A DNA stretch of 64,000 nt from a virus (Duplodnaviria > Heunggongvirae > Uroviricota > Caudoviricetes). This document shows, piece by piece, positions 1 through 16,060 of the stretch (position 1 is its first letter; each line of letters begins with the position of its first letter). A program made the position numbers and the translations under genes. Location: the IMG/VR virus record IMGVR_UViG_2724679539_000005, positions 12,292 through 76,291 of that record. One strand, given 5' to 3'. The notes beneath the pieces were generated by a model, which ran no database searches, had not been told where the DNA came from, and saw nothing but the letters and a program-made list of their open reading frames with translations.

Positions 1-1
1 A

Positions 2-1840
2 GCCGCAATTCAGTCTCTACAGCAGAAGTTAGCGGCAAAACCATCAACCGCACAAGATGTTGGTGAGTTCGTTGGACAAGCAGCGCCATTTGTTAGTGGT
101 GGTGGGATTATTTCTCAGGTTCCCAAAGGGGCGGCAAGACTGGCTGCCGCCGCAGGGCTTGGTGCTGGAGAAGGGGCTATTGTAGCCAATGGAACAAATA
201 GCGATGTTGCTTCCGGCGCTGCTATTGGCGCTGTGGCTGGCCCTGTAGCCGAACTTGCTGGCCCTGCAATTAATAAAATAGCTGGGAAATTAACCAAGAA
301 GAATGTTTCTTCGATTCCAGATATTGAGGGGATTACTCCTGCCGAAGAGAAAATTCGTAAGTTATCTGCACAAGGCAACCCAAATCTTGCCTCTTCGCTT
401 GAAGGGCTAGATCTAAAACCTCAGAAAGAAATTGTTGAGGCTGCAAATAGGCTTCATGTTGATTCAGTTCTTCCTTCTCATTTATCAGGAAATGAGCAAT
501 ACCAAGCTGTAGAGCAAGCCCTAAAGTCACGGACAGGATCAGCGTTAAAAGCTCAAGAAGATAAAGCAATAAGCGAATTAGCCTCTAGTGCTGGCAAGAT
601 AATCGATGATGTTGCTGGTGCGCCAGATGCGTTAGCTATGAGCGAAAAATATATTTATCAGATAAATAGTAGAATGGAAGCACTAAAAAACCGTAGTGAT
701 CAGTTATATAAACGTGTTGATTCCGCTCTATCACCAAGAACAAAAGTCGAAGCAAATAACACAAGCACTATGCTGGAAAAAATCGCTGATGATTTAGGAG
801 GGTGGGATAATCTTGACCCAATAGAAAAGCGAGTTTTTACAGCAATAAACCCCGGACCAGATAGCATCCTAACGTATGCAAATTTAAACAGGCAAAGGCG
901 TTTAGTTGGTGATGCCCTAAATAAAAAGCAGGGGCCATACAAAGATGCTGATAAAGAAACGCTATCAAGACTATATGGAGCTTTAGCTGAAGACCAAAAA
1001 TCTGTCTTATCCAATACTGGATACTTGCGAGATTTCGAAGTCGCACAACGCCTTGTAGCTATGAGAAAAAACTTAGAAAGGCAAATGGTAAATCTTCGCG
1101 GGAAAACACTTAATGGGGATATAGCGTATAAAGTAACGAATTCTCTTCAATCTATGGCAAAAGGTGATGCGAGAGGGTTTCGTGAGATTATGCAAAATAC
1201 TCCATCAAGAACATTGCGAAGGGAGCTAGTAGGAACAGCATTAAGAGATATGCTTTCCTCTGGGAAGCGTGGGGCCGACTTTAATCCATCTGGCTTTGCA
1301 GATTGGTGGCAAAACTTGCAACACAGTGGACAGCTAAAGACTTTGGCTGAACATTTGCCAAAAGAAACAATGAGCGGACTATATGATGTATACAAAGTTG
1401 CCAGAGCAATAAAAAATGCTAAAGCGCATGAAATATCTACTGGTAAGCTGAATGAGTTTGTAAACAGATTTAATCGGGTAACAGCTCCATACGAACTAGC
1501 AGCAAAACACATTCAAAAAATAGGCACGATGGTAGGCGCTCATTTTGGATCGCTTGGAGCCATTGCTGGGGCTGATATTGGAGCAAGATTGGCGAGTAAA
1601 GCTCGATTAGCTGGTGGAGCAGGGGCGGCTGATGCTGCGGATAAATTAATTGCCTCGCCAGCCTTCCAGAGCGCAGTAAAAAATCTACACGGAAAAGCGC
1701 CTGGGCACATTGTTGATTCACGTATCAGGCGCTCCCCTCAATGGAAGAGTTTTTTTAACTCTCTTCCTGAACAGGAAAAACGGACCATCGCCAGACTGGG
1801 CATCATTACTTGGCTATCTAATGATCCAGATAATGACTAG
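2..1840 (+). CDS. C-terminal part (>=612 aa) of a large Gly/Ala-rich protein of unknown function; 5' end lies outside the window
   Basis: Frame is open from position 2 to the TAG at 1838-1840; the track's first Met is at 233. Gly/Ala-rich stretches near both ends. No family recognised. Confidence 0.5.
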   Translation, partial: AAIQSLQQKLAAKPSTAQDVGEFVGQAAPFVSGGGIISQVPKGAARLAAAAGLGAGEGAIVANGTNSDVASGAAIGAVAGPVAELAGPAINKIAGKLTKKNVSSIPDIEGITPAEEKIRKLSAQGNPNLASSLEGLDLKPQKEIVEAANRLHVDSVLPSHLSGNEQYQAVEQALKSRTGSALKAQEDKAISELASSAGKIIDDVAGAPDALAMSEKYIYQINSRMEALKNRSDQLYKRVDSALSPRTKVEANNTSTMLEKIADDLGGWDNLDPIEKRVFTAINPGPDSILTYANLNRQRRLVGDALNKKQGPYKDADKETLSRLYGALAEDQKSVLSNTGYLRDFEVAQRLVAMRKNLERQMVNLRGKTLNGDIAYKVTNSLQSMAKGDARGFREIMQNTPSRTLRRELVGTALRDMLSSGKRGADFNPSGFADWWQNLQHSGQLKTLAEHLPKETMSGLYDVYKVARAIKNAKAHEISTGKLNEFVNRFNRVTAPYELAAKHIQKIGTMVGAHFGSLGAIAGADIGARLASKARLAGGAGAADAADKLIASPAFQSAVKNLHGKAPGHIVDSRIRRSPQWKSFFNSLPEQEKRTIARLGIITWLSNDPDND

Positions 1841-1859
1841 TGAATGGCCACGGATGGCC

Positions 1860-2285
1860 TCAATCTTTATTCTTTGAAATAGAGTCATTGATCTTTTCGA
1901 AACACCAATGAAATCCACAAAAGAGAGCTACACCAATATAACAATACAAAACTATCAACCACCTTTCAGTGTCCGAAGGGTAAAAAACATCAATTACATA
2001 AGCAACACCAATTGGTATTAATGCTAGTAATAACATCGACACAGGACGTACAAACTTCTGAACTATATCAATTTTATAGAACCACAAGGCGGTATGTTTA
2101 ATGATATAAGTAAAGATGGCTGCGCCAATAATGGCAAAAAACACCATCGATAAAGTCGGGTATAACTTTGCGACAATTAAACCCAACAAAATAATTATAA
2201 CTGCCTGCCCCCTCACACCAACCCTCCCTTTAGCTTTGTTTAGAATGGCAATCATCATATATCCAAGACATGGCATTTGGTACAT
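1860..2285 (-). CDS. small integral membrane protein (about 3-4 TM helices); start uncertain
   Basis: Track ORF 1860-2474; the hydrophobic body starts at internal Met codons (2255-2285). Convergent with and immediately downstream of the large ORF. Confidence 0.4.
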   Translation of the reverse strand: MYQMPCLGYMMIAILNKAKGRVGVRGQAVIIILLGLIVAKLYPTLSMVFFAIIGAAIFTYIIKHTALWFYKIDIVQKFVRPVSMLLLALIPIGVAYVIDVFYPSDTERWLIVLYCYIGVALFCGFHWCFEKINDSISKNKD

Positions 2286-2408
2286 AGCTTGGGTCGGGAT
2301 TTCAAATCCGCCCCCGTTGATGGGGTCGTTACAGTACGCGCATATCCGCTTTATGTGAAACAGGAAGATTTTTCTGATATCACTGCCACAGCAAAACACC
2401 AATTTCGT

Positions 2409-2710
2409 GACCAGTACGCGCGCGAGGGGTATCAGTTGCAAAATTTTTTGCAACTGCGTCCGACCAGTACGCACACGATGGCGGGGGATACCATGAAACT
2501 GTTCTCTACACGAGACAGAGTGGTGGTGATGTGTTGATTATCGGCGTATATGCGCACAGGACGCGCTATGACGATGTTTTATGCGGGTACACCAATCACA
2601 TGTATCTGGTGTGATAAATCGCGTTACATGACCTCTCATGTTGTGCTGGTGGTTATCACGACGTTCTGAATCTGGCTTTTGTCTGATATTTTGCGACAAG
2701 TACGCGCGCG
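2409..2710. repeat. three copies of the 16-bp motif GAC(C/A)AGTACGC(G/A)C(G/A)CG plus a 24-bp perfect palindrome; a fourth motif copy lies at 5410-5427
   Basis: Motif at 2409-2424, 2462-2477, 2695-2710 and 5410-5427. Palindrome CAGTTGCAAAATTTTTTGCAACTG at 2433-2456. Confidence 0.5.
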
Positions 2711-3047
2711 TAACATCGAAATTATCGGATGGCGTATGTTGCTGGCAAGATAAAGTCGGCGTAATACAAAGGCGTTACTTGATAGCAGCAAGATTACAAC
2801 AATGGTTGTTGAATTTGAGCGATGTAAGGAATTGATTTAGGGAGGCGCTGATGGCTAAAAAGTTCCACTACCAGCGGATGAATGCGCCAGCGATGGCCGT
2901 TTGGTAGTAAAAGAGGAGCCATTCCTCAATCAGTTGAATACATTATGCCAACTAAATGGGTGGGGGCACTGTGTGGGTATTCAGCGGTGACGGTATTTTT
3001 TAAGCCAAGGACTATCCGTAGCAGGGGGACTCATTTTGAAATATTTA

Positions 3048-3485
3048 TCATATGTAACTTATTATTTTAGATAAAGATTTCCAGTTAAAGAAAAAAGTTA
3101 TCATTGATATAATCAAATATGCCCCTGCGAGTAGCAGGGCATAATAATCCAGAGGCAGATTGCTGACAACAGGGGCAAACATCGAGATCATTGCTAATAG
3201 GCAGGCTGTGATCAGCGTAGTTCCTGTATCAAAAAGCCCCTCAATAATGCCTTTTAGTACTCCGTTACTTTTTAGAGCGCCTACAATTCCCTTTGAACTA
3301 TCAAAGCTACTTAGCATGGTGACTGATGCCAAAACAAAACCAAAGAGAACTCCAGAAATAGTTGAAAGAGCACCAGCAGCCGAAATGACAGCATTGTGAT
3401 CTAGGTCGTGTAAAAAATGGGCACCAGCAATAGCCATAGCTAGAGCAAACAATGACTTGGCAGCAAACAATTTCCGAGAACTCAT
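3048..3485 (-). CDS. small multi-pass membrane protein (145 aa), second gene of a two-gene cassette
   Basis: About four hydrophobic helices; starts 12 bp after the stop of the upstream 361-aa ORF on the same strand; AT-rich. Confidence 0.6.
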   Translation of the reverse strand: MSSRKLFAAKSLFALAMAIAGAHFLHDLDHNAVISAAGALSTISGVLFGFVLASVTMLSSFDSSKGIVGALKSNGVLKGIIEGLFDTGTTLITACLLAMISMFAPVVSNLPLDYYALLLAGAYLIISMITFFFNWKSLSKIISYI

Positions 3486-3497
3486 AATGTATTCCTG

Positions 3498-4583
3498 TTA
3501 CGTTTGACTAACCAAATAGTACTGGGTTAGATACCTAAGGTTGTCATTCTTTGCTTGTAGCATAGCATTTTTAACGTCAGTATCGGTCGGATACCCATCT
3601 GCTTGGATAGGCACCATCTTCTTTACCGTAAGAACTTCGTCTACAAGACTTTTCTTCTTTTTATCGCCCTGAGCAACAACATTTGCTTTCTCAAAAGTTA
3701 AACGACCATCACCACCAGGGAACTTTTCTAGCATCTCCTTAAGGCTTTTTTTAACGTCATCCTCAAGCCATCCCTTTGCTTTTCTTTTTAATGGAGAATG
3801 TCCGCGTAACGAAATAGTCAGGTGGCTTGAACTGGTGCCTCTGATCATCTCAATCATCTGATTCGCGAACATTCCATCGAGTTGATACTGTGCGGCATTG
3901 AAGTTTCTTGGGATGGCCACAGAAATCTCGCAGCTTCTTAGATTGGATCCAGTTTCGAGTAGTTCTTTGATGCTTTCTTCTTTCCAAATGGCTTCAAAAG
4001 AAACAGGGACTCCGCGATCACTGGAGTTGAAAAGAAGGAAGGCTAAGTCACTATGGCGTGGACCTAAATGATTTAAAGACAATACTAGAATGTCTGTCTG
4101 AGGATAATAAATAAAGTATGTACGTTCTGAAAGAGTCTTTGCCCCGGCTAGAGGGATTTTCTCTTCCACCCACTCTTTATCTGTAATATATGCCAGTGTT
4201 GCGCTTTTTCTTCTTCGAGACATGAATCCGAAGTAGGAGCCATCCTCGGGTGAGATGTCTAGAAAATGAATTTTAAGTTCTCTTTCACCAAAGTCTGCAT
4301 AGTGGGTCATCTTGAAGTCTTTAGAACACCGATCATACAGATTTTTAAAGGCCTCTGCGGTTAACCCCTTGTTACTAGTGCGAATATTCTCAGAGCTTGT
4401 GTAAAAGCCCACCCTTACAGATTTCAAACTTTGATCTTTTGGTGCCACAGTCATTTGAGCTCCATTGTACTCTGCGATAGTTTTTGCACACCTTGAAATC
4501 AAAATCTCCATGTCAGTCACGAGAAAATAACTATGGATGAAACCCATCAAAGGCATTGAATACAGGTGGCTTTTGAGAATCAT
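3498..4583 (-). CDS. hypothetical cytoplasmic protein (361 aa), first gene of the two-gene cassette
   Basis: Long uninterrupted ORF with no recognisable motif; AT-rich codon usage unlike the flanking DNA; followed directly by the membrane-protein gene. Confidence 0.65.
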   Translation of the reverse strand: MILKSHLYSMPLMGFIHSYFLVTDMEILISRCAKTIAEYNGAQMTVAPKDQSLKSVRVGFYTSSENIRTSNKGLTAEAFKNLYDRCSKDFKMTHYADFGERELKIHFLDISPEDGSYFGFMSRRRKSATLAYITDKEWVEEKIPLAGAKTLSERTYFIYYPQTDILVLSLNHLGPRHSDLAFLLFNSSDRGVPVSFEAIWKEESIKELLETGSNLRSCEISVAIPRNFNAAQYQLDGMFANQMIEMIRGTSSSHLTISLRGHSPLKRKAKGWLEDDVKKSLKEMLEKFPGGDGRLTFEKANVVAQGDKKKKSLVDEVLTVKKMVPIQADGYPTDTDVKNAMLQAKNDNLRYLTQYYLVSQT

Positions 4584-4934
4584 CCTAACCTGGTGACGGT
4601 GGTTCGCATATCCTGATGGATGATCAGTGATTAATCAATGCGCCAAGCAGATGTGTCTATGTGTTTGTTAATCATTGCATGACAGTAGATCGACATGGGA
4701 GATCACGTTATATAGTTGAATTGTTAGGATATCCATGCACCGATCAACTGACTAGGCTGATGTGCTTTTTAGCAGGTGCCATATAGTAGTTAGGCGGTTC
4801 TGTGAAATGATTACTGTTCCAGCATAACTGCGGCATAAAGCGGTGCTATATAAGCTATTTGCTGGCGGATTTAGTCTTCACCGTTAATATATGTAGTGAC
4901 TATTTGACAGAGTGTTAGTTCACGGACACTTTTT

Positions 4935-5043
4935 GTTGGTTCAAAATGAGTTGATGTTGGTTCAATATTTTAGAAAAAACACAATAAAAACAACGCTCTT
5001 TACAAATTGAACCAACTGAACCAACTGAACCAACTGAACCAAC
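4935..5043. repeat. iteron-like 9-bp repeats TGAACCAAC: two inverted copies and four perfect tandem copies
   Basis: GTTGGTTCA at 4935-4943 and 4958-4966; (TGAACCAAC)x4 at 5008-5043. Lies in the divergent intergenic region between the 361-aa cassette and the PerC-like gene. Confidence 0.6.
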
Positions 5044-5079
5044 ACCTTTTTGCTTATCTATATAATCTGAGAGGCAGAA

Positions 5080-5361
5080 ATGATAAGGGACAGGAAAGCT
5101 GAAGAGCTGGAGTCAAAAGGGCTATACCGGAGAGCTGCCGCACGATGGATGGAAGTCATGCTGTTATGCACCGAGGACGATGATCGGGAATGGATAAAGC
5201 GCCGCCGTGAAACGTGTCTGGAGAACGTGAAGCGCCCGCCCGTGAAGGTTGAGGAATTTGGCGACCTGCATAAAGCTGTTACCGAAACGCAACACCGCAT
5301 GGGGATAGCGCAACCGAACGGTAACGCCTTCCGGTTAAATGGCGGCAAGAGGCAAAGGTAG
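5080..5361 (+). CDS. PerC-like small transcriptional activator (93 aa)
   Basis: Size and N-terminal pattern (KAEELE..GLYRRAA.RW.EV) recalled as PerC/Pch family; not verified by search. Confidence 0.45.
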   Translation: MIRDRKAEELESKGLYRRAAARWMEVMLLCTEDDDREWIKRRRETCLENVKRPPVKVEEFGDLHKAVTETQHRMGIAQPNGNAFRLNGGKRQR

Positions 5362-5658
5362 ACCACCAGAGGGAAATCATCCTCTGGCTGGCGGTTTCTG
5401 GTATTTCGGGACAAGTACGCGCACGCGTAGCACCCAATCGGTGAGGAAATAGCGGCGACCTGAATGGTCAAAATCACAACGCAGCTATCCCCGTAAGCAT
5501 CGCTTAACGGAATAGCAGTAACCTGAATCCAGTGGGGAGGGGGTAGTCAAATCTCTACAGGCCTGACTATCCGGGACTGCCCGCCCCATCGTTTTTTTAT
5601 ACCCGCGAAAAATGAAATTTAATCCGGGCGTGTTTCATCCTTCCAGAGGGTATGACGT

Positions 5659-5844
5659 ATGGCACCACGCGAAATAGCCTTATTGACCATCGCCAAACTT
5701 GAGCACGGAGGCCACCAGCTTACACAGGCAGATCAACGGGAGATAGAACGATCAGTTAATGCCGATATAGCCCGGCGCGACAGGTTCCGCGAAATGATGC
5801 GAGCACCTGCCTACCAGTGGAAGAAGCCAGCGCCGCGCAGGTAG
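5659..5844 (+). CDS. hypothetical small protein (61 aa)
   Basis: ORF with a charged/basic C-terminus; no family recognised. Confidence 0.3.
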   Translation: MAPREIALLTIAKLEHGGHQLTQADQREIERSVNADIARRDRFREMMRAPAYQWKKPAPRR

Positions 5845-5964
5845 ATATGGGATTATTCCACATGTAACTTATGCGTATTAAGCAAATTTCCTTTATTCAC
5901 CTTTACAGAATTGTGAGTACGTCAGTATCGTTATCCTTCCGATTCGCATTTATTCAGGATTTGC

Positions 5965-6507
5965 ATGTACCAGCTAAAGATAACCATCCGAGACAGCAAA
6001 CCACCTATATGGCGGCGTGTGCTGGTTCCAGAGCAAATCCCCTTTAGTAAACTTCATGCCGTGATCCAGTTAGCTTTTGGCTGGAATGACGAACACCTGT
6101 ATATGTTCGAGAAAGGGCGTAAAGGTGATCCAGGTAGCGAGTATCGCGTATGGGGTGAGGATGAAAGCATGGGTAACGCGGCAATCACGCCACTATGGGC
6201 GGCGCTCCAGAATGAGGGTGACAAGCTGGTTTACACGTATGACTTTGGCGACTGGTGGGATTGCGTCATTGTGCTGGAGAAGCAAACACACGATACGAGT
6301 AATCAGCCCATTAGCTGCCTGCGTGGGAAAGGCACCACCCCGGCGGAAAACTCAGGCGGCTTGCATGGTTACAATGAATTGCTATTACAGGCCAGAGAGT
6401 CTGATAATCCTGAGCAGGCCGAGATCCACAATTTCCTGATGCTGGATATTGAACGCCGGGTTTACGACCTGAGCCGCATCAACGACAGATTGCAGGCTAT
6501 TAACTGA
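5965..6507 (+). CDS. pRiA4b ORF-3-like family protein (180 aa)
   Basis: N-terminal pattern IxIT(I)RDSKPPIWRR..VP..F..LH..IQ.AFGW...HLY.F recalled as the PF07929-like family. Confidence 0.5.
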   Translation: MYQLKITIRDSKPPIWRRVLVPEQIPFSKLHAVIQLAFGWNDEHLYMFEKGRKGDPGSEYRVWGEDESMGNAAITPLWAALQNEGDKLVYTYDFGDWWDCVIVLEKQTHDTSNQPISCLRGKGTTPAENSGGLHGYNELLLQARESDNPEQAEIHNFLMLDIERRVYDLSRINDRLQAIN

Positions 6508-6859
6508 CCCGCATGTATTCACCTGATATTGCGTTATCAGCGCCGCCAGTATCGCGCATAACAGCACAATGACCGGGTAAACCGTAACGCACGACCGTTG
6601 CGTTAGTCTCACCGCCGCGCCGTATCTGGCGCGATTCATACACTGTCACCCGCTCAAGCAGTCCACCAGCAACCATGCTTTCCAGTGTGCGCCGGGTTGA
6701 TTCGAGCTGGTGACGCTTATCGAACGACACCATGCCATGAAGCAGGTAGGCCACACCCGACACATCGAACGGCGGCGCACCAATCTCACCAGTCACCCAT
6801 TCGAGGTTATCCGGTTCAAAGTAGCTAAGTATCTCTTTTTTGCGGCTGGTCATTCTCAT
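6500..6859 (-). CDS. hypothetical protein (119 aa), possible winged-helix fold
   Basis: ORF convergent with the preceding gene, overlapping by 8 bp. Confidence 0.35.
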   Translation of the reverse strand: MRMTSRKKEILSYFEPDNLEWVTGEIGAPPFDVSGVAYLLHGMVSFDKRHQLESTRRTLESMVAGGLLERVTVYESRQIRRGGETNATVVRYGLPGHCAVMRDTGGADNAISGEYMRVS

Positions 6860-7060
6860 GGCTGGCTGATTCCTTATTGTGGGATAGCACTATCATACAA
6901 TAAGTGGGTTAAAGGGAGAGCGTTACCGCCTGATATGCTGTATGAATAACAACCAAATTTCAGGGGCGGAAAAAGATATGGGGGTACTTTTGGGGGTATC
7001 TATAAAAAATGAACAATAAAAAAGGCAACAAAAACAAAGCTTATCGCCTATGTGTATTGT

Positions 7061-7077
7061 TCCTATTATCGCACCAT
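7061..7077 (+). other. att core, copy 1 (thrW 3'-end-like TCCTATTATCGCACCAT), next to the integrase 3' end
   Basis: 17-nt match to the tRNA-Thr(CGU) 3' end as recalled; the same core recurs at 48847-48863 and 62056-62072, each followed by an AAATCAATAA-like flank. Confidence 0.6.
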
Positions 7078-7090
7078 CTAAATCAATAAG

Positions 7091-8251
7091 TTACCTCGCA
7101 TTTAAGTAAACTACGTTCTCCTCTTGTGCCGTATTTGTGCCATTGCGACTTATAATCGCATCGATTTTGCTCGCGTGCTCGGTGAGATGCCCAGCTGAAA
7201 GGTGGGCGTATCTTTGAACCATTTCGAGAGTTTCCCATCCTCCCATCTCTTTAAGTGCAAGAAGAGAGACACCGGACTGAACCAGCCAGCTTGCCCAGGT
7301 ATGCCTCAGGTCATGGAAGCGGAAGTTGCTAATGCCTGCCCGCTTTAACGCTCCCTTCCATGCCTTGTTGCTGTCGGTTCTCATCTTCCTTACCGCTGCT
7401 GTTTTTGTTCCGTCGCTTCGGTAGGCAGGTTTGGTGTGGACAAATACCCATCTCTTATGGAGCCCCTGCTGTTTTCTTAATATCTGGCATGCGGTTTCGT
7501 TAAGAGGAACTCCGATCGCATTGCCAGCTTTTGTTTCATCAGGGTGCATCCATGCCATTTTCTTATCCAGATCGACCTGTGACCACTCAAGGTCTGTAAC
7601 GTTGGAACGACGAAGGCCTGTCGTGATTGCAAACATGACCACAGGGAAGAAATGAGGAGCAATTTCTGCAAACAGGCGCTTCGATTCCTCCTCTGTAAGC
7701 CATCTGATTCGTCCATTCTTAACGCGTGGTGTTGATATTTTGGGCGCCCTGTCAAGCCATCCCCATTCAACAGCCATATTGAGAATAGCGCGAAGTATTG
7801 CCAGATGCCGCGTCTTCGTTCCTTTGCTTGCCAGCTTTGGTTTATACTCCGGCACTGGCTTGCCAAGCCGCAAACACCTATCCCGGCTCATCTCCCAGTT
7901 CAGGCGATGGCGGCGGTTTTCCATCCCGTCTACCGCCTCCATTATTTTTTCTGTTGTTATGTCAGAGAGAATGGTTTCTCTGAAGTGCAACATCCAGAAC
8001 GATATAATGCTCTTGTCATCATCAATGGACTTCTTATCCGATTTCTCACGCAGCCACCGTATGCAGGCTTCCTTGAATAGCTTTTTCGGTGATTCCCCGA
8101 GATTTTTTACTCTCCACGCTTCTGCTTTCAGACGATCGTGAAGTTCTTGCGCTTGCCTCTTGTCCGATGTTTCAAGAGAGCGTCTAACTCTTGATCCATC
8201 TGGCGCGACGAAATCGCAGTGCCATGTGCCACCGCGCAGTTTGATTGACAT
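7091..8251 (-). CDS. int: tyrosine integrase (P4/CP4-type)
   Basis: C-terminal catalytic region with [13 protein letters not shown] and the conserved Tyr region (VQRYAHL); 386 aa; adjacent to the att core. Confidence 0.9.
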   Translation of the reverse strand: MSIKLRGGTWHCDFVAPDGSRVRRSLETSDKRQAQELHDRLKAEAWRVKNLGESPKKLFKEACIRWLREKSDKKSIDDDKSIISFWMLHFRETILSDITTEKIMEAVDGMENRRHRLNWEMSRDRCLRLGKPVPEYKPKLASKGTKTRHLAILRAILNMAVEWGWLDRAPKISTPRVKNGRIRWLTEEESKRLFAEIAPHFFPVVMFAITTGLRRSNVTDLEWSQVDLDKKMAWMHPDETKAGNAIGVPLNETACQILRKQQGLHKRWVFVHTKPAYRSDGTKTAAVRKMRTDSNKAWKGALKRAGISNFRFHDLRHTWASWLVQSGVSLLALKEMGGWETLEMVQRYAHLSAGHLTEHASKIDAIISRNGTNTAQEENVVYLNAR

Positions 8252-8547
8252 GCTTTAACCTCCTGCACATCAACCGCATTCACCGCGCCATTGTGTCTCA
8301 CAGACTTAAGCGCCGCAATGCAGTCTGACTTGCAAATGCGATATGGGCTTTTAGGTTTATCTGGATTTATCTTTGCGGCTTGAAGTCGTCCACTTCGTAT
8401 CCACTGCGTGATAGTGCCTTTGTCTACCTTCAGATACGACGCAGCCTCTTCACGAGTGAAGATTTCTTCTTCCACTTGGAGTCTCCATTTATTGGATTGA
8501 CATGATTGCTGTAGGTCTGGATATCTTGAGAAGCTGGCAGGCCTCAT
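8128..8547 (-). CDS. xis: excisionase / AlpA-like HTH DNA-binding protein; 3' extent uncertain
   Basis: HTH segment (EEAASYLKVDKGTITQWIRSGRL); directly upstream of int and overlapping its start in another frame. Confidence 0.55.
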   Translation of the reverse strand: MRPASFSRYPDLQQSCQSNKWRLQVEEEIFTREEAASYLKVDKGTITQWIRSGRLQAAKINPDKPKSPYRICKSDCIAALKSVRHNGAVNAVDVQEVKACQSNCAVAHGTAISSRQMDQELDALLKHRTRGKRKNFTIV

Positions 8548-11655: not shown

Positions 11656-11952
11656 TTATACCTCTGAATCAATATCAACCTGGTGGTGAGCAATGGTTTC
11701 AACCATGTACTGGATGTGTTCTGCCATGCGCTCCTGAAACTCAACATCGTCATCAAACGCACGGGTAATGGCTTTTTTGCTGGCCCCGTGGCGTTGCAAA
11801 TGATCGATGCATAGCGATTCAAACAGGTGCTGGGGCAGGCCTTTTTCCATGTCGTCTGCCAGTTCTGCCTCTTTCTCTTCACGGGCGATCTGCTGGTAGT
11901 GACGCGCCCAGCTCTGAGCCTCAAGACGATCCTGAATGTAATAAGCGTTCAT
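11656..11952 (-). CDS. gam: Gam-like host-nuclease (RecBCD) inhibitor
   Basis: 98 aa, [21 protein letters not shown]...[10 protein letters not shown]; near-identical to lambda Gam (short form) as recalled. Confidence 0.9.
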
Positions 11953-12027
11953 GGCTGACCTCCTGAAAATGGCTGTGAAAATATCGCCCGCGAAATGCCA
12001 GGCTGATTAGGAAAACAGGAAAGGGGA

Positions 12028-12438
12028 TTAGTGATTCAGGCCGTTACCGCGTCCGTCGAGAAAAACTTCCACGAGCAAATCACGGGTATAAGTGCGCTCG
12101 ATGCCGCGATGCAGATAAAGCCGTCCGCGTAAATTAGCTGATGCAGTCCAGGTACCATCTTTGTGTTTGACCAGCATTCCTGGCATGACCGCACCTCGAT
12201 TAACGGTCTGCGTTCCATAATGTTGATGAACCATAAAAACTCCTGCCCGTAAGCTGGGCTGCTGAACATATAGAGACTTCTGCGCGTATTCAGGCGGTGG
12301 ATGGCCGCCGGTTGTCATAACTAAGCCGCCTCGTTGAAGCGACTGAGGTATGAGGTGTTGAGTTGATTTCAGCTGGTCACACCGACGTTCACGCGTCCGT
12401 TTCACCCCTCGCACTCCCCGGAGCCTGCCGAAATTCAA
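12028..12438 (-). CDS. hypothetical early-left protein with Arg-rich N-terminus (possible N-like antiterminator or Kil-position gene)
   Basis: First ORF downstream of the putative OL/PL; N-terminal [10 protein letters not shown] motif resembles an arginine-rich RNA-binding motif. Assignment not established. Confidence 0.3.
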
Positions 12439-12499
12439 GCTGCGGATCTAAGCGGTCATCGCAACGGTGAATCAGGCGGTTGCCGTATCGTTGTGTTGT

Positions 12500-12640
12500 T
12501 GCGACATGGTAATAATAGCTATTGCTATTGGTGGTATCAATACTTATTGCTATTGATTGATGTGTTTTGATATTAACTGTTTGATAGCAAAAAGAATTAA
12601 TTTTGTGACTTGCATCGCATAGCGATAACTGAAGGGAGGT
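12500..12640 (-). promoter_or_regulatory. putative OL/PL operator-promoter region
   Basis: Repeated TTGCTATTGATTG-like half-sites (12516-12558) that match copies in the cI-cro intergenic region (15197-15233). Confidence 0.5.
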
Positions 12641-12679
12641 TGTGGTGGTTTTTCGAACGGTTTGTGTGATGAGGGGAGG

Positions 12680-12707
12680 GGACAAAAGAAAACCCGGCAC
12701 GGTGGCC
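12680..12707 (-). terminator. rho-independent terminator closing the cI-kinase operon (minus strand)
   Basis: On the minus strand: GC stem CCCGGC/GCCGGG followed by a T-run (TTTTCTTTT). Confidence 0.5.
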
Positions 12708-12710
12708 GGG

Positions 12711-12874
12711 CTAGATCTTAAAGTATTTATCTTTTAGAGATGTAGATGCAAAATTTTTTGCCTTTGAAAATTTTTTGTCATCAGAAGAGCTTATGAACTC
12801 ATCTTTTTTGTAGGGAACCGCTAATGCTGCATCACGTCTGCGAGGCAGCTTACTTACTTCCTCGCACTTTTTCA
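12711..12874 (-). CDS. hypothetical small basic protein (54 aa) downstream of the kinase
   Basis: ATG 4 bp after the kinase stop; ends just before the terminator; below the 60-aa track cutoff. Confidence 0.3.
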
Positions 12875-12877
12875 TGA

Positions 12878-13924
12878 TCAGTTATCCTTTAATAACCTAT
12901 ACAGTTTTGTAGGGGTACATCCTGAGGATATTGTTAAGTTCGTAGCACGCCTTTTCCGCCCACCATCGTATAAACGAAAACCAGTAGTAGACGAATTTTC
13001 TGCGTCAAAAACTATAGACAGTATAACGTCCCCAGACTTTTTTTGCCATTCATATGTGCCGTTAGTTGGTTTTGTCATCTGTAGACGCCAGTCAAGAACG
13101 CCATCACTTATAGCTGAGAGATCGTTTAGTACGTCTAGTACGGATTGATATCTTTCATTTGGATCTACATGAATGCATTTGTTTACTATTGTTATCAATT
13201 TTTTATGTATGTGGGAAGGATACTCTTTTAATGGATAGGAGCCATTAATTATCGACTCTCTGAGTTGTTCAATCGTTCTAAATGCAGATCTTTCTCTTTC
13301 AAAATTATCATATCCAACACACATTCTATATATGGTTAATCCTGCCTGATATATGTCATATGTGAAATTATAATCATTTGTTGATAAAGAAAAATATTCC
13401 GGTGGCACATGAAAATGATATCCAAACTCAGGCGCAGCTCTCGATTCCTCATTGACTAACTGAGACAATCCAAAGTCAGATAGCATGGCCTCATTTCTGT
13501 TTGATATCATGATGTTATTAGGTTTTATATCAAAATGCATAAGACCTTTTGAGTGTATATGATAAAGCCCACTTAAAAATTGAATAGAATACCGTATTAT
13601 CTCCCTGCTCGTAAGATTAATCTTTTTTATTAATTGGTTTAGCGAACCATTATGATAAAATGGCATGGCTATATAGATATTGCTCTCACATTGAGCAGCA
13701 TACTGAACTTGCACAATATTTGGATGTGCATGTTTATAGAGAAGCCTTGCTTCATTAAAGTAGTCGTCGTGGTTAGTGTTTTCTTTTTTTTCTATTTCTT
13801 TAATCACCAAGTCATGAGCTAGGTGTCTGTCATGAGCCAGATATACTTTTGAAAAACAACCCTGTTCTTCTAGATCACGAATCCATTCGAATGCTACATC
13901 AGCTCTTTTGTATGGAGTCAGCAT
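12878..13924 (-). CDS. eukaryotic-like Ser/Thr protein kinase (348 aa)
   Basis: Kinase motifs: VIK (beta3 Lys), HFDIKPNN (catalytic loop), DFG, PPE; very AT-rich. Confidence 0.85.
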   Translation of the reverse strand: MLTPYKRADVAFEWIRDLEEQGCFSKVYLAHDRHLAHDLVIKEIEKKENTNHDDYFNEARLLYKHAHPNIVQVQYAAQCESNIYIAMPFYHNGSLNQLIKKINLTSREIIRYSIQFLSGLYHIHSKGLMHFDIKPNNIMISNRNEAMLSDFGLSQLVNEESRAAPEFGYHFHVPPEYFSLSTNDYNFTYDIYQAGLTIYRMCVGYDNFERERSAFRTIEQLRESIINGSYPLKEYPSHIHKKLITIVNKCIHVDPNERYQSVLDVLNDLSAISDGVLDWRLQMTKPTNGTYEWQKKSGDVILSIVFDAENSSTTGFRLYDGGRKRRATNLTISSGCTPTKLYRLLKDN

Positions 13925-14379
13925 CCCCTTACCTCCGCAGATAGTGCAGCCAAAACAGCTTCATTTGTTTCAGTTGTAAAACCAGAATTATCGATTCCAT
14001 TTATATTACGGTGTGACTTCAATATTTCTTTATACTCGATCTCTGTTAGGTTCAATGATGACTTCATACCAGATTTTCTAATGGTGTAATATCTTCTTAC
14101 ATCACTGCTTGAAAATGCTTCTTGAATAACAGCTTCTATATAAAGGCGGTCAATGCTAAGATTATCAGAGTTTGATTCAGTAACGCGTATAGCAGCTAAT
14201 TCAACATTATATAAATTAAGAATGTCGAGGATGTTATTTCGCACATACTTTAATTTTTCTGGTGTGTCTAAGGTCGAAGGTATTTTAATAACATCAACAC
14301 ATTTGAGTGCAGACTCATCAGTGCAATATACAACAAAAGATGTAACTTTGGGCGCCGCCCTAACACCTAGTATTCTCAT
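13918..14379 (-). CDS. hypothetical protein (153 aa) co-transcribed upstream of the kinase; N-terminus resembles a RuvC/YqgF-like RNase H fold with the catalytic Asp replaced
   Basis: MRILGVRAAPKVTSFVV resembles the RuvC N-terminus (ILGIDPG..TG); overlaps the kinase start by 7 nt. Confidence 0.5.
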   Translation of the reverse strand: MRILGVRAAPKVTSFVVYCTDESALKCVDVIKIPSTLDTPEKLKYVRNNILDILNLYNVELAAIRVTESNSDNLSIDRLYIEAVIQEAFSSSDVRRYYTIRKSGMKSSLNLTEIEYKEILKSHRNINGIDNSGFTTETNEAVLAALSAEVRGC

Positions 14380-14459
14380 TTTTTATATCCCATTTTAGAA
14401 TCAGGCTGCGTTTCTGCAGCCTCTCTCATCACCCAAATGTCTAATCAGGCTATTATTGA

Positions 14460-15188
14460 TTATCCATGTTTCCTGTATGTTTGCGGCATGCTCCCAATAA
14501 CTTTCCCGAAGATAAACACCCGGTTCATCTCGTCTTTCTCGATTGGGTCCCACGGTGAGTAGCTCTTGTTATCAGAGATAACCAGCAGTTTATCCTTCAT
14601 CATTTGCAGGCGCTTAACATGGGCTGTGTCGTCATACAGAAACGCATAGATACCATCACCGTCGAAAGATTTAACAGTGATATCAACGAACAGAAGATCA
14701 CCTGGTTCGATCGTTCCTGACATGCTGTCACCGCGTACGTTAATGATGCGGATATTTTCTGCCTTCCTGCCATCGAACATGTGACGAGCATCGTCAAACG
14801 AGTACTCAACCGAGCGTAGAACTTCTACAAACTCACGGTTGATGACTCCCGGCCCGGCACTCACTTCTATATCAAGAACGTCAATCTTGAAGTATTTGGG
14901 ATGGTTGGCAGCAGGCTTCCCTGATTGTTGACCGTCATTTCTCATCGGGCCTATGCCTGATGAGAGCCACTCTGTTCGAACACCCAATGCATTAGCTATT
15001 TCAACAATTTTTGTTGAGCCGCGTGCGTTGCCGCTTGTCAGTCTCCAGATTGTGGGTTGAGCTACGCCAGACGCCTTTGCAAGAGCGCCTTGAGACATTC
15101 CAGATTGTTCCATCGCTAGGTTTAAGCGATCAGCAAGAGTTTCTTTTTTCATAAGTTTTAATTTATACGCTTGCGTATTGATGGTCAA
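14460..15188 (-). CDS. cI: CI-type prophage repressor (HTH plus S24 LexA-like peptidase domain)
   Basis: N-terminal HTH (MSQGALAKASGVAQPTIWRL), C-terminal VRGDSM...GDLLFVD...KRL autocleavage domain; true start may be Met13 (15152). Confidence 0.85.
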   Translation of the reverse strand: MTINTQAYKLKLMKKETLADRLNLAMEQSGMSQGALAKASGVAQPTIWRLTSGNARGSTKIVEIANALGVRTEWLSSGIGPMRNDGQQSGKPAANHPKYFKIDVLDIEVSAGPGVINREFVEVLRSVEYSFDDARHMFDGRKAENIRIINVRGDSMSGTIEPGDLLFVDITVKSFDGDGIYAFLYDDTAHVKRLQMMKDKLLVISDNKSYSPWDPIEKDEMNRVFIFGKVIGSMPQTYRKHG

Positions 15189-15256
15189 AACACGTTTTGC
15201 TATTGATTGGGTTAATACGCATTGCTATTATCCATTCATTGTAATACCAATAGGAA
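15150..15256. promoter_or_regulatory. putative OR/PR-PRM operator region between cI and cro
   Basis: Divergent cI/cro intergenic region with TTGCTATTGATTG and CATTGCTATTA repeats and an ATACGC..GCGTAT inverted repeat. Confidence 0.5.
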
Positions 15257-15490
15257 TTGATAATGACAAATCAAACCATTCAACTCGCAATCAGTATTAC
15301 AGGTAGTCAAAAACGACTGGCAGATCTATGCGGTGTAGCCCAGCCCACTGTTTGGCGTTGGCTACACGGTGGCGGAATTGATGCCCGCTATGTAATGAAA
15401 ATTGTCTCAGCCACTGGTGGAAAGATTAAACCAGCAGATATTCGTCCCGACCTTGCACCATTGTTTAACGCGAGTAATTCTGCCGCCTAA
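15257..15490 (+). CDS. cro: Cro/YdaS-like HTH regulator
   Basis: 77 aa, HTH (SQKRLADLCGVAQPTVWRWL); divergent from cI. Confidence 0.7.
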   Translation: MIMTNQTIQLAISITGSQKRLADLCGVAQPTVWRWLHGGGIDARYVMKIVSATGGKIKPADIRPDLAPLFNASNSAA

Positions 15491-15514
15491 ACTGCGGCGT
15501 TAACTGATAAGGCA

Positions 15515-16060
15515 ATGATTATGCAACCACTTACATACCAACAGACTAGCGGATTTAGCCCGACTGCGGTGATAAATCGTTCTCAAATAAAACAGGTGCC
15601 AGGCCACGAAAAAATCCGTGATGCCGTTCGCGCCTGGTCGGCTGCAGATAATCAGGATGTTGTTGCCGCACTCATTGTGAATGAGTATCGGGAGCAGGGC
15701 GGCGGCACCATCGATTTCCCTGATGATGTCAGCCGTGCACGCCAGAAGCTGTTCCGCTTCCTCGATAACAAATTCGATTCTGAAAAATACCGAAATAACG
15801 TGCGTGAACTGACCCCGGCAATTCTGGCGGTACTACCGCTGGAATATCGCGGCCACCTGGTTGAGCAGGATAGCTTCATGGCTCGGCTGGCTGAAATGGA
15901 AAAGGAACTCTGTGAGGCAAAGCAGGCGGTCATTCTCAACGCACCACGCCACCAGAAACTGAAGGAGATGAGTGAAGGTATTGTGTCGATGTTTCGTGTG
16001 GACCCGGATCTGGCTGGTCCATTGATGGCGATGGTCACCACCATGCTGGGGGCAATATGA
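15515..16060 (+). CDS. YdaT-like protein (functional CII-position gene)
   Basis: Motifs EYREQGGG and LTPAILAVLPLEYRGHL resemble Rac YdaT as recalled. Confidence 0.55.
   Translation: MIMQPLTYQQTSGFSPTAVINRSQIKQVPGHEKIRDAVRAWSAADNQDVVAALIVNEYREQGGGTIDFPDDVSRARQKLFRFLDNKFDSEKYRNNVRELTPAILAVLPLEYRGHLVEQDSFMARLAEMEKELCEAKQAVILNAPRHQKLKEMSEGIVSMFRVDPDLAGPLMAMVTTMLGAI

What the first reader, a model, noticed from the sequence alone, without database searches (positions are those of the whole stretch)
12680..14379. Ser/Thr kinase operon occupying the rexAB slot directly downstream of cI
Seen in sequence: cI (14460-15188, minus) is followed on the same strand by a 153-aa gene, a 348-aa eukaryotic-like Ser/Thr kinase that overlaps it by 7 nt, a 54-aa ORF and a terminator, all AT-rich, lying between the repressor and the OL/PL-like operator repeats. 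Established knowledge: this is the position where lambda carries rexA-rexB, expressed with cI in lysogens, and prophage 933W is reported to carry an exclusion kinase (Stk) active against HK97. Inference: this is a lysogen-expressed anti-phage module. The 153-aa partner has a RuvC/YqgF-like N-terminus with the catalytic Asp apparently replaced, which suggests a sensor or substrate rather than a nuclease. I know of no described system with this 153-aa protein plus kinase plus small basic ORF composition.
Basis: partly seen in the sequence, partly recalled or inferred. Interest (0 to 1): 0.8.

Follow-up and report, generated by a model that had tools for sequence, protein, structure and literature searches.

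The report
The phage 933W Stk kinase operon
This is a near-identical copy of the three-gene kinase cassette of Shiga-toxin phage 933W, whose kinase is already reported to make lysogens abort infection by phage HK97; only its two small partner genes remain unstudied.

Summary
On the minus strand, cI is followed by a 153-aa gene, a 348-aa Hanks-type kinase (7-nt overlap), a 54-aa gene and an intrinsic terminator. The block is AT-rich and lies between cI and OL/PL-like operators.

The claim that this composition is undescribed is wrong. The block (12685-14442) is 96.9% identical in DNA to L0083-stk-L0081-tM of phage 933W (AF125520). Protein identities are 152/153, 337/348 and 50/54. It occurs in 225 of 5426 complete E. 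coli genomes. Papers I could read report that 933W Stk is co-transcribed with cI and aborts HK97 infection.

New here:
- The trio is an obligate unit. A kinase follows the 153-aa homologue in 72 of 73 loci fetched through it, and a 153-aa homologue precedes the kinase in four distant hosts, down to about 32-40% identity.
- All three genes are under purifying selection.
- A phage with a 99% identical cI carries unrelated cargo in the same slot.

Verdict: already known system. The roles of the two partner genes are the open question.

The parts
14460..15152 (-). cI-type repressor (HTH_3 + Peptidase_S24), 230 aa from ATG 15152. The longest ORF extends to TTG 15188.
   Evidence: RefSeq annotation of identical DNA. 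It is 99% identical to CI of phage Perceval and only 53/269 identical to 933W CI.
15153..15256 (.). OR-like region between cI and the rightward cro-like gene. It holds operator-like words and divergent promoter-like sites. The PRM-like -10 ends at 15160, which would give a near-leaderless cI mRNA.
   Evidence: Promoter assignments are consensus matches only (inference).
14404..14421 (-). Conserved hairpin GGCTGC-AGAAAC-GCAGCC in the cI to 153-aa spacer, at the upstream edge of the cassette.
   Evidence: 933W has GGTCGC-AGAGAT-GCGGCC, with one compensatory pair (T-A to C-G) and one wobble change. Function unknown.
13918..14379 (-). 153-aa RuvC-fold protein, orthologue of 933W L0083 (PHROG 3875). 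It lacks the canonical RuvC catalytic tetrad.
12878..13924 (-). 348-aa Hanks-type protein kinase, orthologue of 933W Stk. Kinase domain spans about aa 20-260, followed by an about 90-aa C-terminal alpha/beta domain with no recognisable family.
12711..12875 (-). 54-aa hydrophilic, basic protein, orthologue of 933W L0081 (PHROG 4063). It is probably translationally coupled to the kinase.
   Evidence: A 50-66 aa ORF follows the kinase within -3 to +11 nt in 16 of 17 representative loci. Weak shared motif R-R-x-x-A-L-A-x-P-Y. dN/dS 0.20-0.32.
12681..12712 (-). Intrinsic terminator (8-bp stem, 6 GC pairs, then a T-run), equivalent to tM of 933W. It marks the downstream edge of the cassette.
   Evidence: 933W annotation 'tM; putative terminator for pM transcript'.
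12512..12590 (-). OL/PL-like region: operator-like repeats and a leftward sigma-70-like promoter (TTGATA, 17 nt, TATTAT).
   Evidence: This region is 96.5-96.7% identical in lambdoid phages 4A7, Perceval and others.

Best explanation
Window 12685-14442 is the stk cassette of Shiga-toxin phage 933W (L0083-stk-L0081-tM), carried here by a lambdoid prophage with a different immunity region.

Proposed working:
- The cassette is transcribed with cI from the maintenance promoter in lysogens and stops at its own terminator before OL/PL.
- The kinase is catalytically competent but stays quiet in uninfected cells.
- Infection by a heterologous phage (HK97 for 933W) activates it. Broad phosphorylation then aborts the infection at the cost of the cell.

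My added inference is that the three genes form one functional unit. The RuvC-fold protein has Arg and Arg/Lys in place of the RuvC metal-binding Asp7 and Glu66. I read it as a non-canonical, probably non-cleaving, sensor or regulator subunit of the kinase. I read the 54-aa basic protein as a small adaptor or pseudosubstrate-like regulator.

Rough confidence:
- Identity with the 933W operon: about 0.97.
- Lysogen-expressed abortive-infection function: about 0.8.
- The partner genes are required parts of the system: about 0.5.
For: Shown here:
- DNA is 96.9% identical to 933W and many Stx phages over 12685-14442. Proteins are 152/153, 337/348 and 50/54 identical, and 933W has the same gene order and terminator.
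- The anatomy fits a PRM operon: same strand as cI, an 80-nt spacer, 7-nt and 2-nt gene junctions, and a terminator right after the last gene. Promoter-like sites inside the block do not exceed chance (10 found against 9.5 expected).
- Kinase catalytic residues are invariant across 43 homologues.
- The trio is linked. A kinase follows the 153-aa homologue in 72 of 73 loci fetched through it. A 152-155 aa homologue (E 1e-41 to 1e-52) precedes the kinase in Pseudomonas, Acinetobacter, Vibrio and Crocinitomicaceae. A small ORF follows the kinase in 16/17 and 3/4 loci.
- All three genes are under purifying selection, strongest on the 153-aa gene.
- Neighbours are defence-type or mobile: cI-like repressors in 6 of 10 distant loci, Wadjet JetC/JetD, Abi_2 plus integrase, and type I R-M plus integrase.
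- The slot exchanges cargo. Perceval has a 99% identical CI and the same OL/PL but unrelated genes in between.

From literature I could read:
- The 933W kinase is co-transcribed with cI and aborts HK97 infection (PMC3564112).
- Stk is activated on HK97 infection and has little activity in uninfected cells (PMC3681748).
- stk is under pRM control and expressed in stable lysogeny (PMC3430580).
- stk expression behaves like cI on induction (PMC4651098).
Against: - No experiment exists on this allele. It differs from 933W Stk at 11 residues, none of them invariant family positions.
- The primary papers (Tyler & Friedman 2004; Friedman et al. 2011) are not in the held library. I could not check whether stk alone, without L0083 and L0081, sufficed for exclusion. 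If it did, the partners are dispensable at least for HK97 exclusion.
- Co-transcription from PRM in this prophage is inferred from anatomy, not measured. The conserved hairpin upstream of the 153-aa gene might attenuate read-through.
- The non-cleaving reading of the RuvC-fold protein rests on alignment and a predicted model. Invariant E68, E82, E87 and E140 could form a different active site.
Confidence: 0.8

Rival explanations
1. The kinase acts alone. The 153-aa and 54-aa genes are independent passenger genes that happen to travel with it.
For: Published work, as cited in the papers I could read, speaks only of Stk. The single-gene kinase system PD-T4-6 gives strong HMM hits to the kinase domain, which shows that stand-alone defence kinases exist.
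Against: - The genes are adjacent with overlapping or near-abutting junctions in 72 of 73 loci, and in 4 of 4 distant hosts reached through the kinase, down to about 32-40% identity.
- Identities of the two proteins fall in parallel across loci.
- The 153-aa gene is the most constrained of the three.
- The trio also moves together outside prophage immunity regions.
Confidence: 0.15
2. The module is toxin-antitoxin-like. The kinase is a growth-arresting toxin, and the upstream 153-aa protein or the 54-aa protein is its antitoxin. The main role would be stabilising the element (addiction) rather than defence.
For: The gene pair is tightly overlapped, with the smaller gene first. Kinase activation is reported to be self-inflicted and lethal (title of Friedman 2011, cited). 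The module sits on mobile elements next to integrases.
Against: - The reported phenotype is phage-triggered abortive infection.
- The module sits in a slot that swaps exclusion cargo.
- No antitoxin-like DNA-binding domain was found in either partner.
- The two models are not exclusive. An inhibitor released on infection is one form of the best explanation.
Confidence: 0.2
3. The 153-aa protein is an active structure-specific nuclease, a divergent RuvC. It would work in phage recombination or as the effector that degrades invading DNA, with the kinase as its regulator.
Against: - The positions of RuvC Asp7 and Glu66 are Arg (140 of 141) and Arg/Lys (148 of 148) family-wide. The Asp138 position is variable.
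- The Pfam RuvC score is 13.6 bits, below the 22.2-bit threshold.
- It is expressed from the lysogenic operon, not with the recombination genes.
- The prophage region already carries exo, bet and gam, and related E. coli prophages also carry rusA.
Confidence: 0.12
4. The kinase has a non-defence role, modifying bacterial or eukaryotic host physiology or virulence.
For: It is a eukaryotic-like kinase carried by Stx phages of pathogens. One review still described it in 2012 as having an 'as yet unidentified impact' (PMC3430580).
Against: - HK97 exclusion is reported.
- The module occurs in non-pathogen hosts and beside R-M, Abi_2 and Wadjet genes.
- This allele lies in a non-Stx lambdoid prophage of commensal and animal E. 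coli.
Confidence: 0.05

Closest known systems
Phage 933W stk operon (L0083-stk-L0081-tM; GenBank AF125520 / NC_000924); Stk abortive-infection kinase
   Same: Same three genes in the same order, with the same 7-nt and 2-nt junctions and the same terminator. DNA is 96.9% identical. Same position between cI and OL/PL on the cI strand.
   Different: - The immunity region differs: cI is only about 20% identical and the operators differ.
- 933W has an extra 113-aa gene, L0084, between cI and L0083. It matches PADLOC candidate PDC-S43 and is absent here.
- 933W has N and nutL to the left of the terminator. Here no N-like ORF was found.
- There are 11, 2 and 4 amino-acid differences in the three proteins.
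Lambda rexA-rexB
   Same: Same slot: downstream of cI, transcribed with it in lysogens, and closed by a terminator before OL/PL. Same logic of prophage-encoded exclusion of other phages by abortive infection (PMC3564112).
   Different: The proteins are unrelated. Here they are a kinase, a RuvC-fold protein and a 54-aa hydrophilic protein, not a sensor plus membrane channel.
RuvC Holliday junction resolvase (PF02075; PDB 4ld0, 6lw3, 1hjr)
   Different: The catalytic Asp7 and Glu66 positions are Arg and Arg/Lys, the Asp138 position is variable, and only the last acidic position is kept, as Glu140. The Pfam score is below threshold. The gene is always paired with a kinase.
Stand-alone or other defence kinases: PD-T4-6, MADS MAD6, staphylococcal Stk2
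   Same: Hanks-type kinase domain used in anti-phage defence. PADLOC hits to mad6 (8e-49) and PD-T4-6 (1.5e-36) cover the kinase domain. From my own knowledge, Stk2 also works by phage-protein-triggered broad phosphorylation.
   Different: The similarity covers the kinase domain only. The NCBIfam MAD6 score is 113.7 bits against a 460-bit cut-off. Those systems lack the RuvC-fold and small-protein partners and the Stk C-terminal domain.

Membership tests
933W stk operon | Kinase orthologous to 933W Stk over its full length | tested here: met
   337/348 identical with no gaps. DNA 96.9% identical.
933W stk operon | Flanked by L0083 (153 aa) upstream and L0081 (54 aa) downstream, ending at the tM terminator | tested here: met
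   152/153 and 50/54 identical. Same junctions and terminator.
933W stk operon | Located downstream of cI on the same strand, before OL/PL | tested here: met
933W stk operon | Excludes HK97 by kinase-dependent abortive infection; tyrosine phosphorylation activity | not testable with these tools
   Known only from literature on 933W (PMC3681748; PMC3564112). Not measured for this allele.
Hanks-type protein kinase (PF00069) | Profile score above the gathering threshold | tested here: met
   159.7 bits against a 31.7-bit threshold, E=1.2e-46.
Hanks-type protein kinase (PF00069) | Catalytic residues: beta3 Lys, alphaC Glu, HxDxKxxN loop, DFG | tested here: met
   K42, E58, H130, D132, K134, N137, D150 and F151 are invariant; G152 is nearly invariant (at least 90%).
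RuvC Holliday junction resolvase | RuvC / RNase H-like fold over the whole protein | tested here: met
RuvC Holliday junction resolvase | Sequence-profile membership (PF02075 gathering score) | tested here: not met
   13.6 bits against a 22.2-bit threshold, E=0.062, N-terminal 65 residues only. No PDB sequence match.
RuvC Holliday junction resolvase | Acidic catalytic tetrad (E. coli Asp7, Glu66, Asp138, Asp141) | tested here: not met
   R7 in 140 of 141 aligned, R/K65 in 148 of 148, position 137 variable, E140 kept. Only the first two positions are placed by hhalign, and that match is weak (probability 1.5%, E=0.033). The two C-terminal positions are placed by eye. No model coordinates were available.
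Lambda RexAB | Position downstream of cI, ahead of OL/PL | tested here: met
Lambda RexAB | RexA- and RexB-like proteins | tested here: not met
   The three proteins are a kinase, a RuvC-fold protein and a small protein with no family hit. No Rex family appears among the listed PADLOC, Pfam or NCBIfam hits. One search shows only the best 25 of 34 kinase hits. I made no direct pairwise comparison with RexA or RexB.
PD-T4-6 / MADS MAD6 defence kinases | Full-length equivalence, not just a shared kinase domain | tested here: inconclusive
   PADLOC hits cover the kinase domain only. NCBIfam MAD6 scores 113.7 bits against a 460-bit cut-off. The obligate partner genes here argue for a separate system.

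The most novel reading that the evidence does not exclude
L0083-Stk-L0081 is an obligate three-component abortive-infection system spread from Enterobacterales to Pseudomonas, Acinetobacter, Vibrio and Bacteroidota. In this reading, a RuvC-fold protein has traded its metal-binding carboxylates for arginines and no longer cuts DNA. Instead it senses phage recombination machinery or its branched or annealed DNA products and switches on the kinase. The 54-aa protein would tune or gate the switch.

One lead, from my memory only and unverified: the HK97 trigger reported by Friedman et al. 2011 is 'gp41'. By gene order in NC_002167, gp41 is the Erf-like annealing protein.
Probability: 0.25. Interest if true: 0.6.

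Novelty: already known. Interest (0 to 1): 0.3.

Why it matters
As flagged, the finding is a re-sighting of a published prophage exclusion operon, so it does not open a new kind of system.

Its residual value is narrower but real:
- The characterised kinase never travels alone. It is always preceded by a highly constrained RuvC-fold protein with a rewired active site, and in most loci checked (16 of 17 and 3 of 4) it is followed by a small basic protein.
- Neither partner is modelled in PADLOC-DB 2.0, and neither is discussed in the literature I could search.
- If the partners are the sensor or regulator, the 933W Stk model (a phage protein directly activates the kinase) would need revising. 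A nuclease fold repurposed as a kinase regulator would be a useful addition to the catalogue of defence architectures.
- The locus also gives a clean example of cargo exchange in the cI to OL slot. The same cI carries different cargo, and the same cargo sits next to different cI genes.

Tried and rejected
- **Primary papers.** Tyler & Friedman 2004 and Friedman et al. 2011 are not held. I relied on secondary citations.
- **Literature on the partner genes.** Searches for L0083, for RuvC plus kinase, and for the HK97 trigger found nothing relevant.
- **PADLOC, NCBIfam and Pfam on the 153-aa and 54-aa proteins.** Only chance-level hits: tm_HEPN 0.015 and EMYY lipoprotein 0.0045.
- **PDB sequence search with the 153-aa profile.** Nothing meaningful. 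The fold search was needed.
- **Internal promoter for the cassette.** Consensus-like sites do not exceed shuffled expectation, so no claim is made.
- **Rfam on 11900-15700.** No match at E up to 1.
- **PL leader 12270-12505.** Not unusually structured as RNA, z = -0.14. A put-like antiterminator RNA is therefore not supported.
- **Test of the Erf-trigger idea.** No Erf, Abc2, gp40 or gp42 homologue occurs in 80 module-bearing loci, while Bet occurs in 15. This is consistent but weak: the flanks are short and the loci are redundant.
- **Assumed E. coli MIN6 context.** I assumed the window was collinear with the strain MIN6 DLP12-site prophage. Outside the matched core it is not, and the window has no tRNA gene. 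I make no claim about integration site or prophage integrity for the window itself.
Full report
**1. Observation**

The six-frame ORF list shows, on the minus strand:
- a cI-like ORF at 14460-15188;
- a 153-aa ORF at 13918-14379;
- a 348-aa ORF at 12878-13924;
- a 54-aa ORF at 12711-12875.

The sequence itself shows the 7-nt overlap ATGCTGA between the first two genes and a 2-nt gap between the kinase stop and the 54-aa start. A stem-loop with 6 GC pairs followed by a T-run sits at 12712-12691, directly after the last stop.

GC falls to 0.33-0.40 across 12800-14400, against 0.46-0.53 on both sides.

Left of the terminator, at 12512-12590, there are operator-like words. The 13-mer TTGCTATTGATTG recurs upstream of cI at 15197. 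A leftward promoter-like site is also present.

Pfam confirms HTH_3 plus Peptidase_S24 in the repressor and a protein kinase domain (E=1.2e-46) in the 348-aa protein.

One correction is needed. The likely cI start is ATG 15152 (230 aa), as in RefSeq annotation of identical DNA and in phage Perceval.

**2. What it is**

A megablast of 12600-14460 against phage records gives 52 hits. Phage 933W and many Stx1/Stx2 phages match at 96.9% identity over window 12685-14442.

The 933W record annotates, in the same order, L0083 (153 aa), stk (348 aa), L0081 (54 aa) and 'tM; putative terminator for pM transcript'. Protein identities to the window are 152/153, 337/348 and 50/54.

The homology block ends exactly at the terminator T-run on one side. 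On the other side it ends about 60 nt upstream of the 153-aa start codon. It behaves as a discrete cassette.

The surroundings differ:
- The window's cI is only 53/269 identical to 933W cI.
- 933W has an additional gene, L0084, between cI and L0083.
- 933W has N and nutL to the left of the terminator.

The cassette is present in 225 of 5426 complete E. coli genomes. Thirty carry it at 99% identity or more (this allele) and 196 at 95-99% (the 933W-type allele).

**3. What is known about it**

The two primary papers are not in the held library. Papers I could read state the following:
[quoted passage not shown] - stk is under pRM control and is expressed in stable lysogeny (PMC3430580).
- stk transcript levels behave like cI on induction (PMC4651098).

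None of the papers found by ten full-text searches discusses L0083 or L0081.

**4. New evidence on the partner genes**

*(a) Linkage*
- A search with the 153-aa protein found 75 clusters, mostly Enterobacterales, with outliers such as Terasakiella.
- In loci fetched through this protein, a kinase lies immediately downstream in 72 of 73. The exception is a truncated copy.
- Across these loci the 153-aa identity falls from 100% to 32%, and the kinase identity falls in parallel from 100% to 40%.
- Starting instead from the kinase (536 clusters at E of 1e-20 or better, all about 340-353 aa), four distant hosts were checked: Pseudomonas, Acinetobacter, Crocinitomicaceae and Vibrio. In all four, the kinase gene is preceded by a 152-155 aa gene, overlapping it by 4-8 nt in three hosts and ending 2 nt before it in Crocinitomicaceae.
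- Those upstream proteins match the 153-aa profile at E 1e-41 to 1e-52.
- A 50-66 aa ORF starts within -3 to +11 nt of the kinase stop in 16 of 17 representative loci, and one follows the kinase (+3, -3 and +38 nt) in 3 of the 4 distant hosts. These small proteins share only a loose R-R-x-x-A-L-A-x-P-Y motif.

*(b) Selection*

| Gene | dN/dS vs 933W | dN/dS vs an 85%-identical relative |
|---|---|---|
| 153-aa gene | 0.08 | 0.04 |
| kinase | 0.21 | 0.08 |
| 54-aa gene | 0.32 | 0.20 |

All three are real genes, and the 153-aa gene is the most constrained.

*(c) Structure of the 153-aa protein*
- An AlphaFold2 model from a 37-sequence alignment has mean pLDDT 90.8.
- Position 7 is Arg in all 37 close homologues and in 140 of 141 aligned residues among 148 representatives of 50%-identity clusters.
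- Position 65 is Arg or Lys in 148 of 148.
- The Asp138-equivalent position is variable.
- The last acidic position is kept as Glu140.
- E68, R47, R78, E82 and E87 are also near-invariant.
- The family has 449 representatives at E of 0.001 or better.

I read this as a RuvC fold that has lost canonical two-metal chemistry, with two basic side chains where the metals would bind. This is an inference. The two C-terminal residue equivalences are by eye, no model coordinates were available, and an alternative acidic site cannot be excluded.

*(d) The kinase*
- K42, E58, H130, D132, K134, N137, D150 and F151 are invariant, and G152 is nearly invariant (at least 90%). The kinase should be active.

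**5. Context**

Upstream of the module, 6 of 10 distant representative loci have an HTH plus S24 repressor. The placement downstream of the prophage repressor therefore recurs with unrelated immunity types.

Elsewhere the trio sits:
- beside Wadjet JetC/JetD;
- beside Abi_2 and an integrase;
- beside type I R-M genes and an integrase;
- inside an Acinetobacter prophage tail region.

Conversely, phage Perceval has a CI 99% identical to the window's and the same OL/PL DNA (96.5%). Its slot holds an unrelated 340-aa protein plus a 168-aa transmembrane protein, with no PADLOC match.

The slot is therefore a cargo-exchange site and the Stk trio is a portable cassette. This supports a defence role. 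The published phenotype supports it more directly.

**6. Mechanism**

Best supported:
- The cassette is expressed with cI from PRM.
- It ends at its own terminator.
- The kinase is held inactive.
- A heterologous phage activates it, and phosphorylation aborts the infection.

Expression and phenotype come from the literature on the 97%-identical 933W copy. The anatomy consistent with them is shown here.

My added inference is that the 153-aa and 54-aa proteins are regulatory or sensing subunits. This rests on obligate synteny, gene junctions suggesting translational coupling, and constraint. I put it at about 0.5, because published exclusion experiments may have used stk alone.

One lead is worth recording. 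From memory only, and unverified, the HK97 trigger is 'gp41'. In NC_002167 the gene between Gp40 and Gp43 (kil) is the Erf-like annealing protein. A junction-resolvase fold turned sensor would fit a recombination-linked trigger.

Module-bearing loci contain Bet but never Erf, Abc2, gp40 or gp42 homologues. That test is weak.

**7. Verdict**

- The feature is real and correctly described.
- The defence reading is reasonable and matches published work.
- The module is the known 933W stk operon, not a new composition. Novelty: already known.
- Interest is modest (0.3). It rests on the uncharacterised, obligately linked RuvC-fold and small-protein partners.

Noticed in passing
window 14404-14421 (minus strand): A hairpin, GGCTGC-AGAAAC-GCAGCC, lies in the spacer between the cI stop and the 153-aa start, at the upstream edge of the 933W-homologous block. 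933W keeps the stem with one compensatory change and one wobble change. It could be a processing, stability or attenuation element.
   Followed up: partly
window 12235-12511: No N-like antiterminator ORF lies between the PL-like promoter and the kil-like gene (12028-12234), unlike 933W, which has N and nutL there. The leader has no Rfam match and is not unusually structured (z = -0.14). The same leader is 95-97% identical in phages 4A7, Lambda_4C10, Perceval and others.
   Followed up: partly
L001 5263-5604 (933W L0084; absent from the window): The extra 113-aa gene that 933W carries between cI and L0083 matches PADLOC candidate defence family PDC-S43 (E=4.4e-41). The 933W slot may therefore hold two stacked defence cargos.
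   Followed up: no
L086 4974-6524 (phage Perceval OV696612): With a 99% identical cI and the same OL/PL, Perceval carries a 340-aa protein plus a 168-aa transmembrane protein in the slot. This is a Rex-like layout (soluble plus membrane protein) with no PADLOC hit, and may be an uncharacterised exclusion pair.
   Followed up: partly
window 15152-15188: The longest cI ORF starts at TTG 15188, but ATG 15152 is the likely start. A PRM-like promoter (-35 TTGACC at 15188, -10 ending at 15160) would give a nearly leaderless cI mRNA, as at lambda PRM.
   Followed up: partly
E. coli SFE8 NZ_CP051219 (H26/H41); loci L028, L030, L036, L069: Some copies of the module are damaged. In strain SFE8 the match to the module is split in two pieces with an IS3-family transposase annotated under it. 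In four viral contigs the kinase match lacks its N-terminal 45-100 residues.
   Followed up: no
window 1-8500 and whole window: The window contains no tRNA gene. Its first roughly 8.5 kb does not follow the argU/DLP12-site context seen in E. coli genomes that carry the identical module (where the integrase is split by ISEc22). The host replicon and integration site of this copy are undetermined.
   Followed up: partly
window 15515-16060: The gene in the cII position downstream of the cro-like gene is a YdaT-domain protein (181-aa ORF here; annotated as 'toxin YdaT domain-containing' in identical E. coli DNA). The same YdaS/YdaT pairing appears next to the Klebsiella copy of the module.
   Followed up: no
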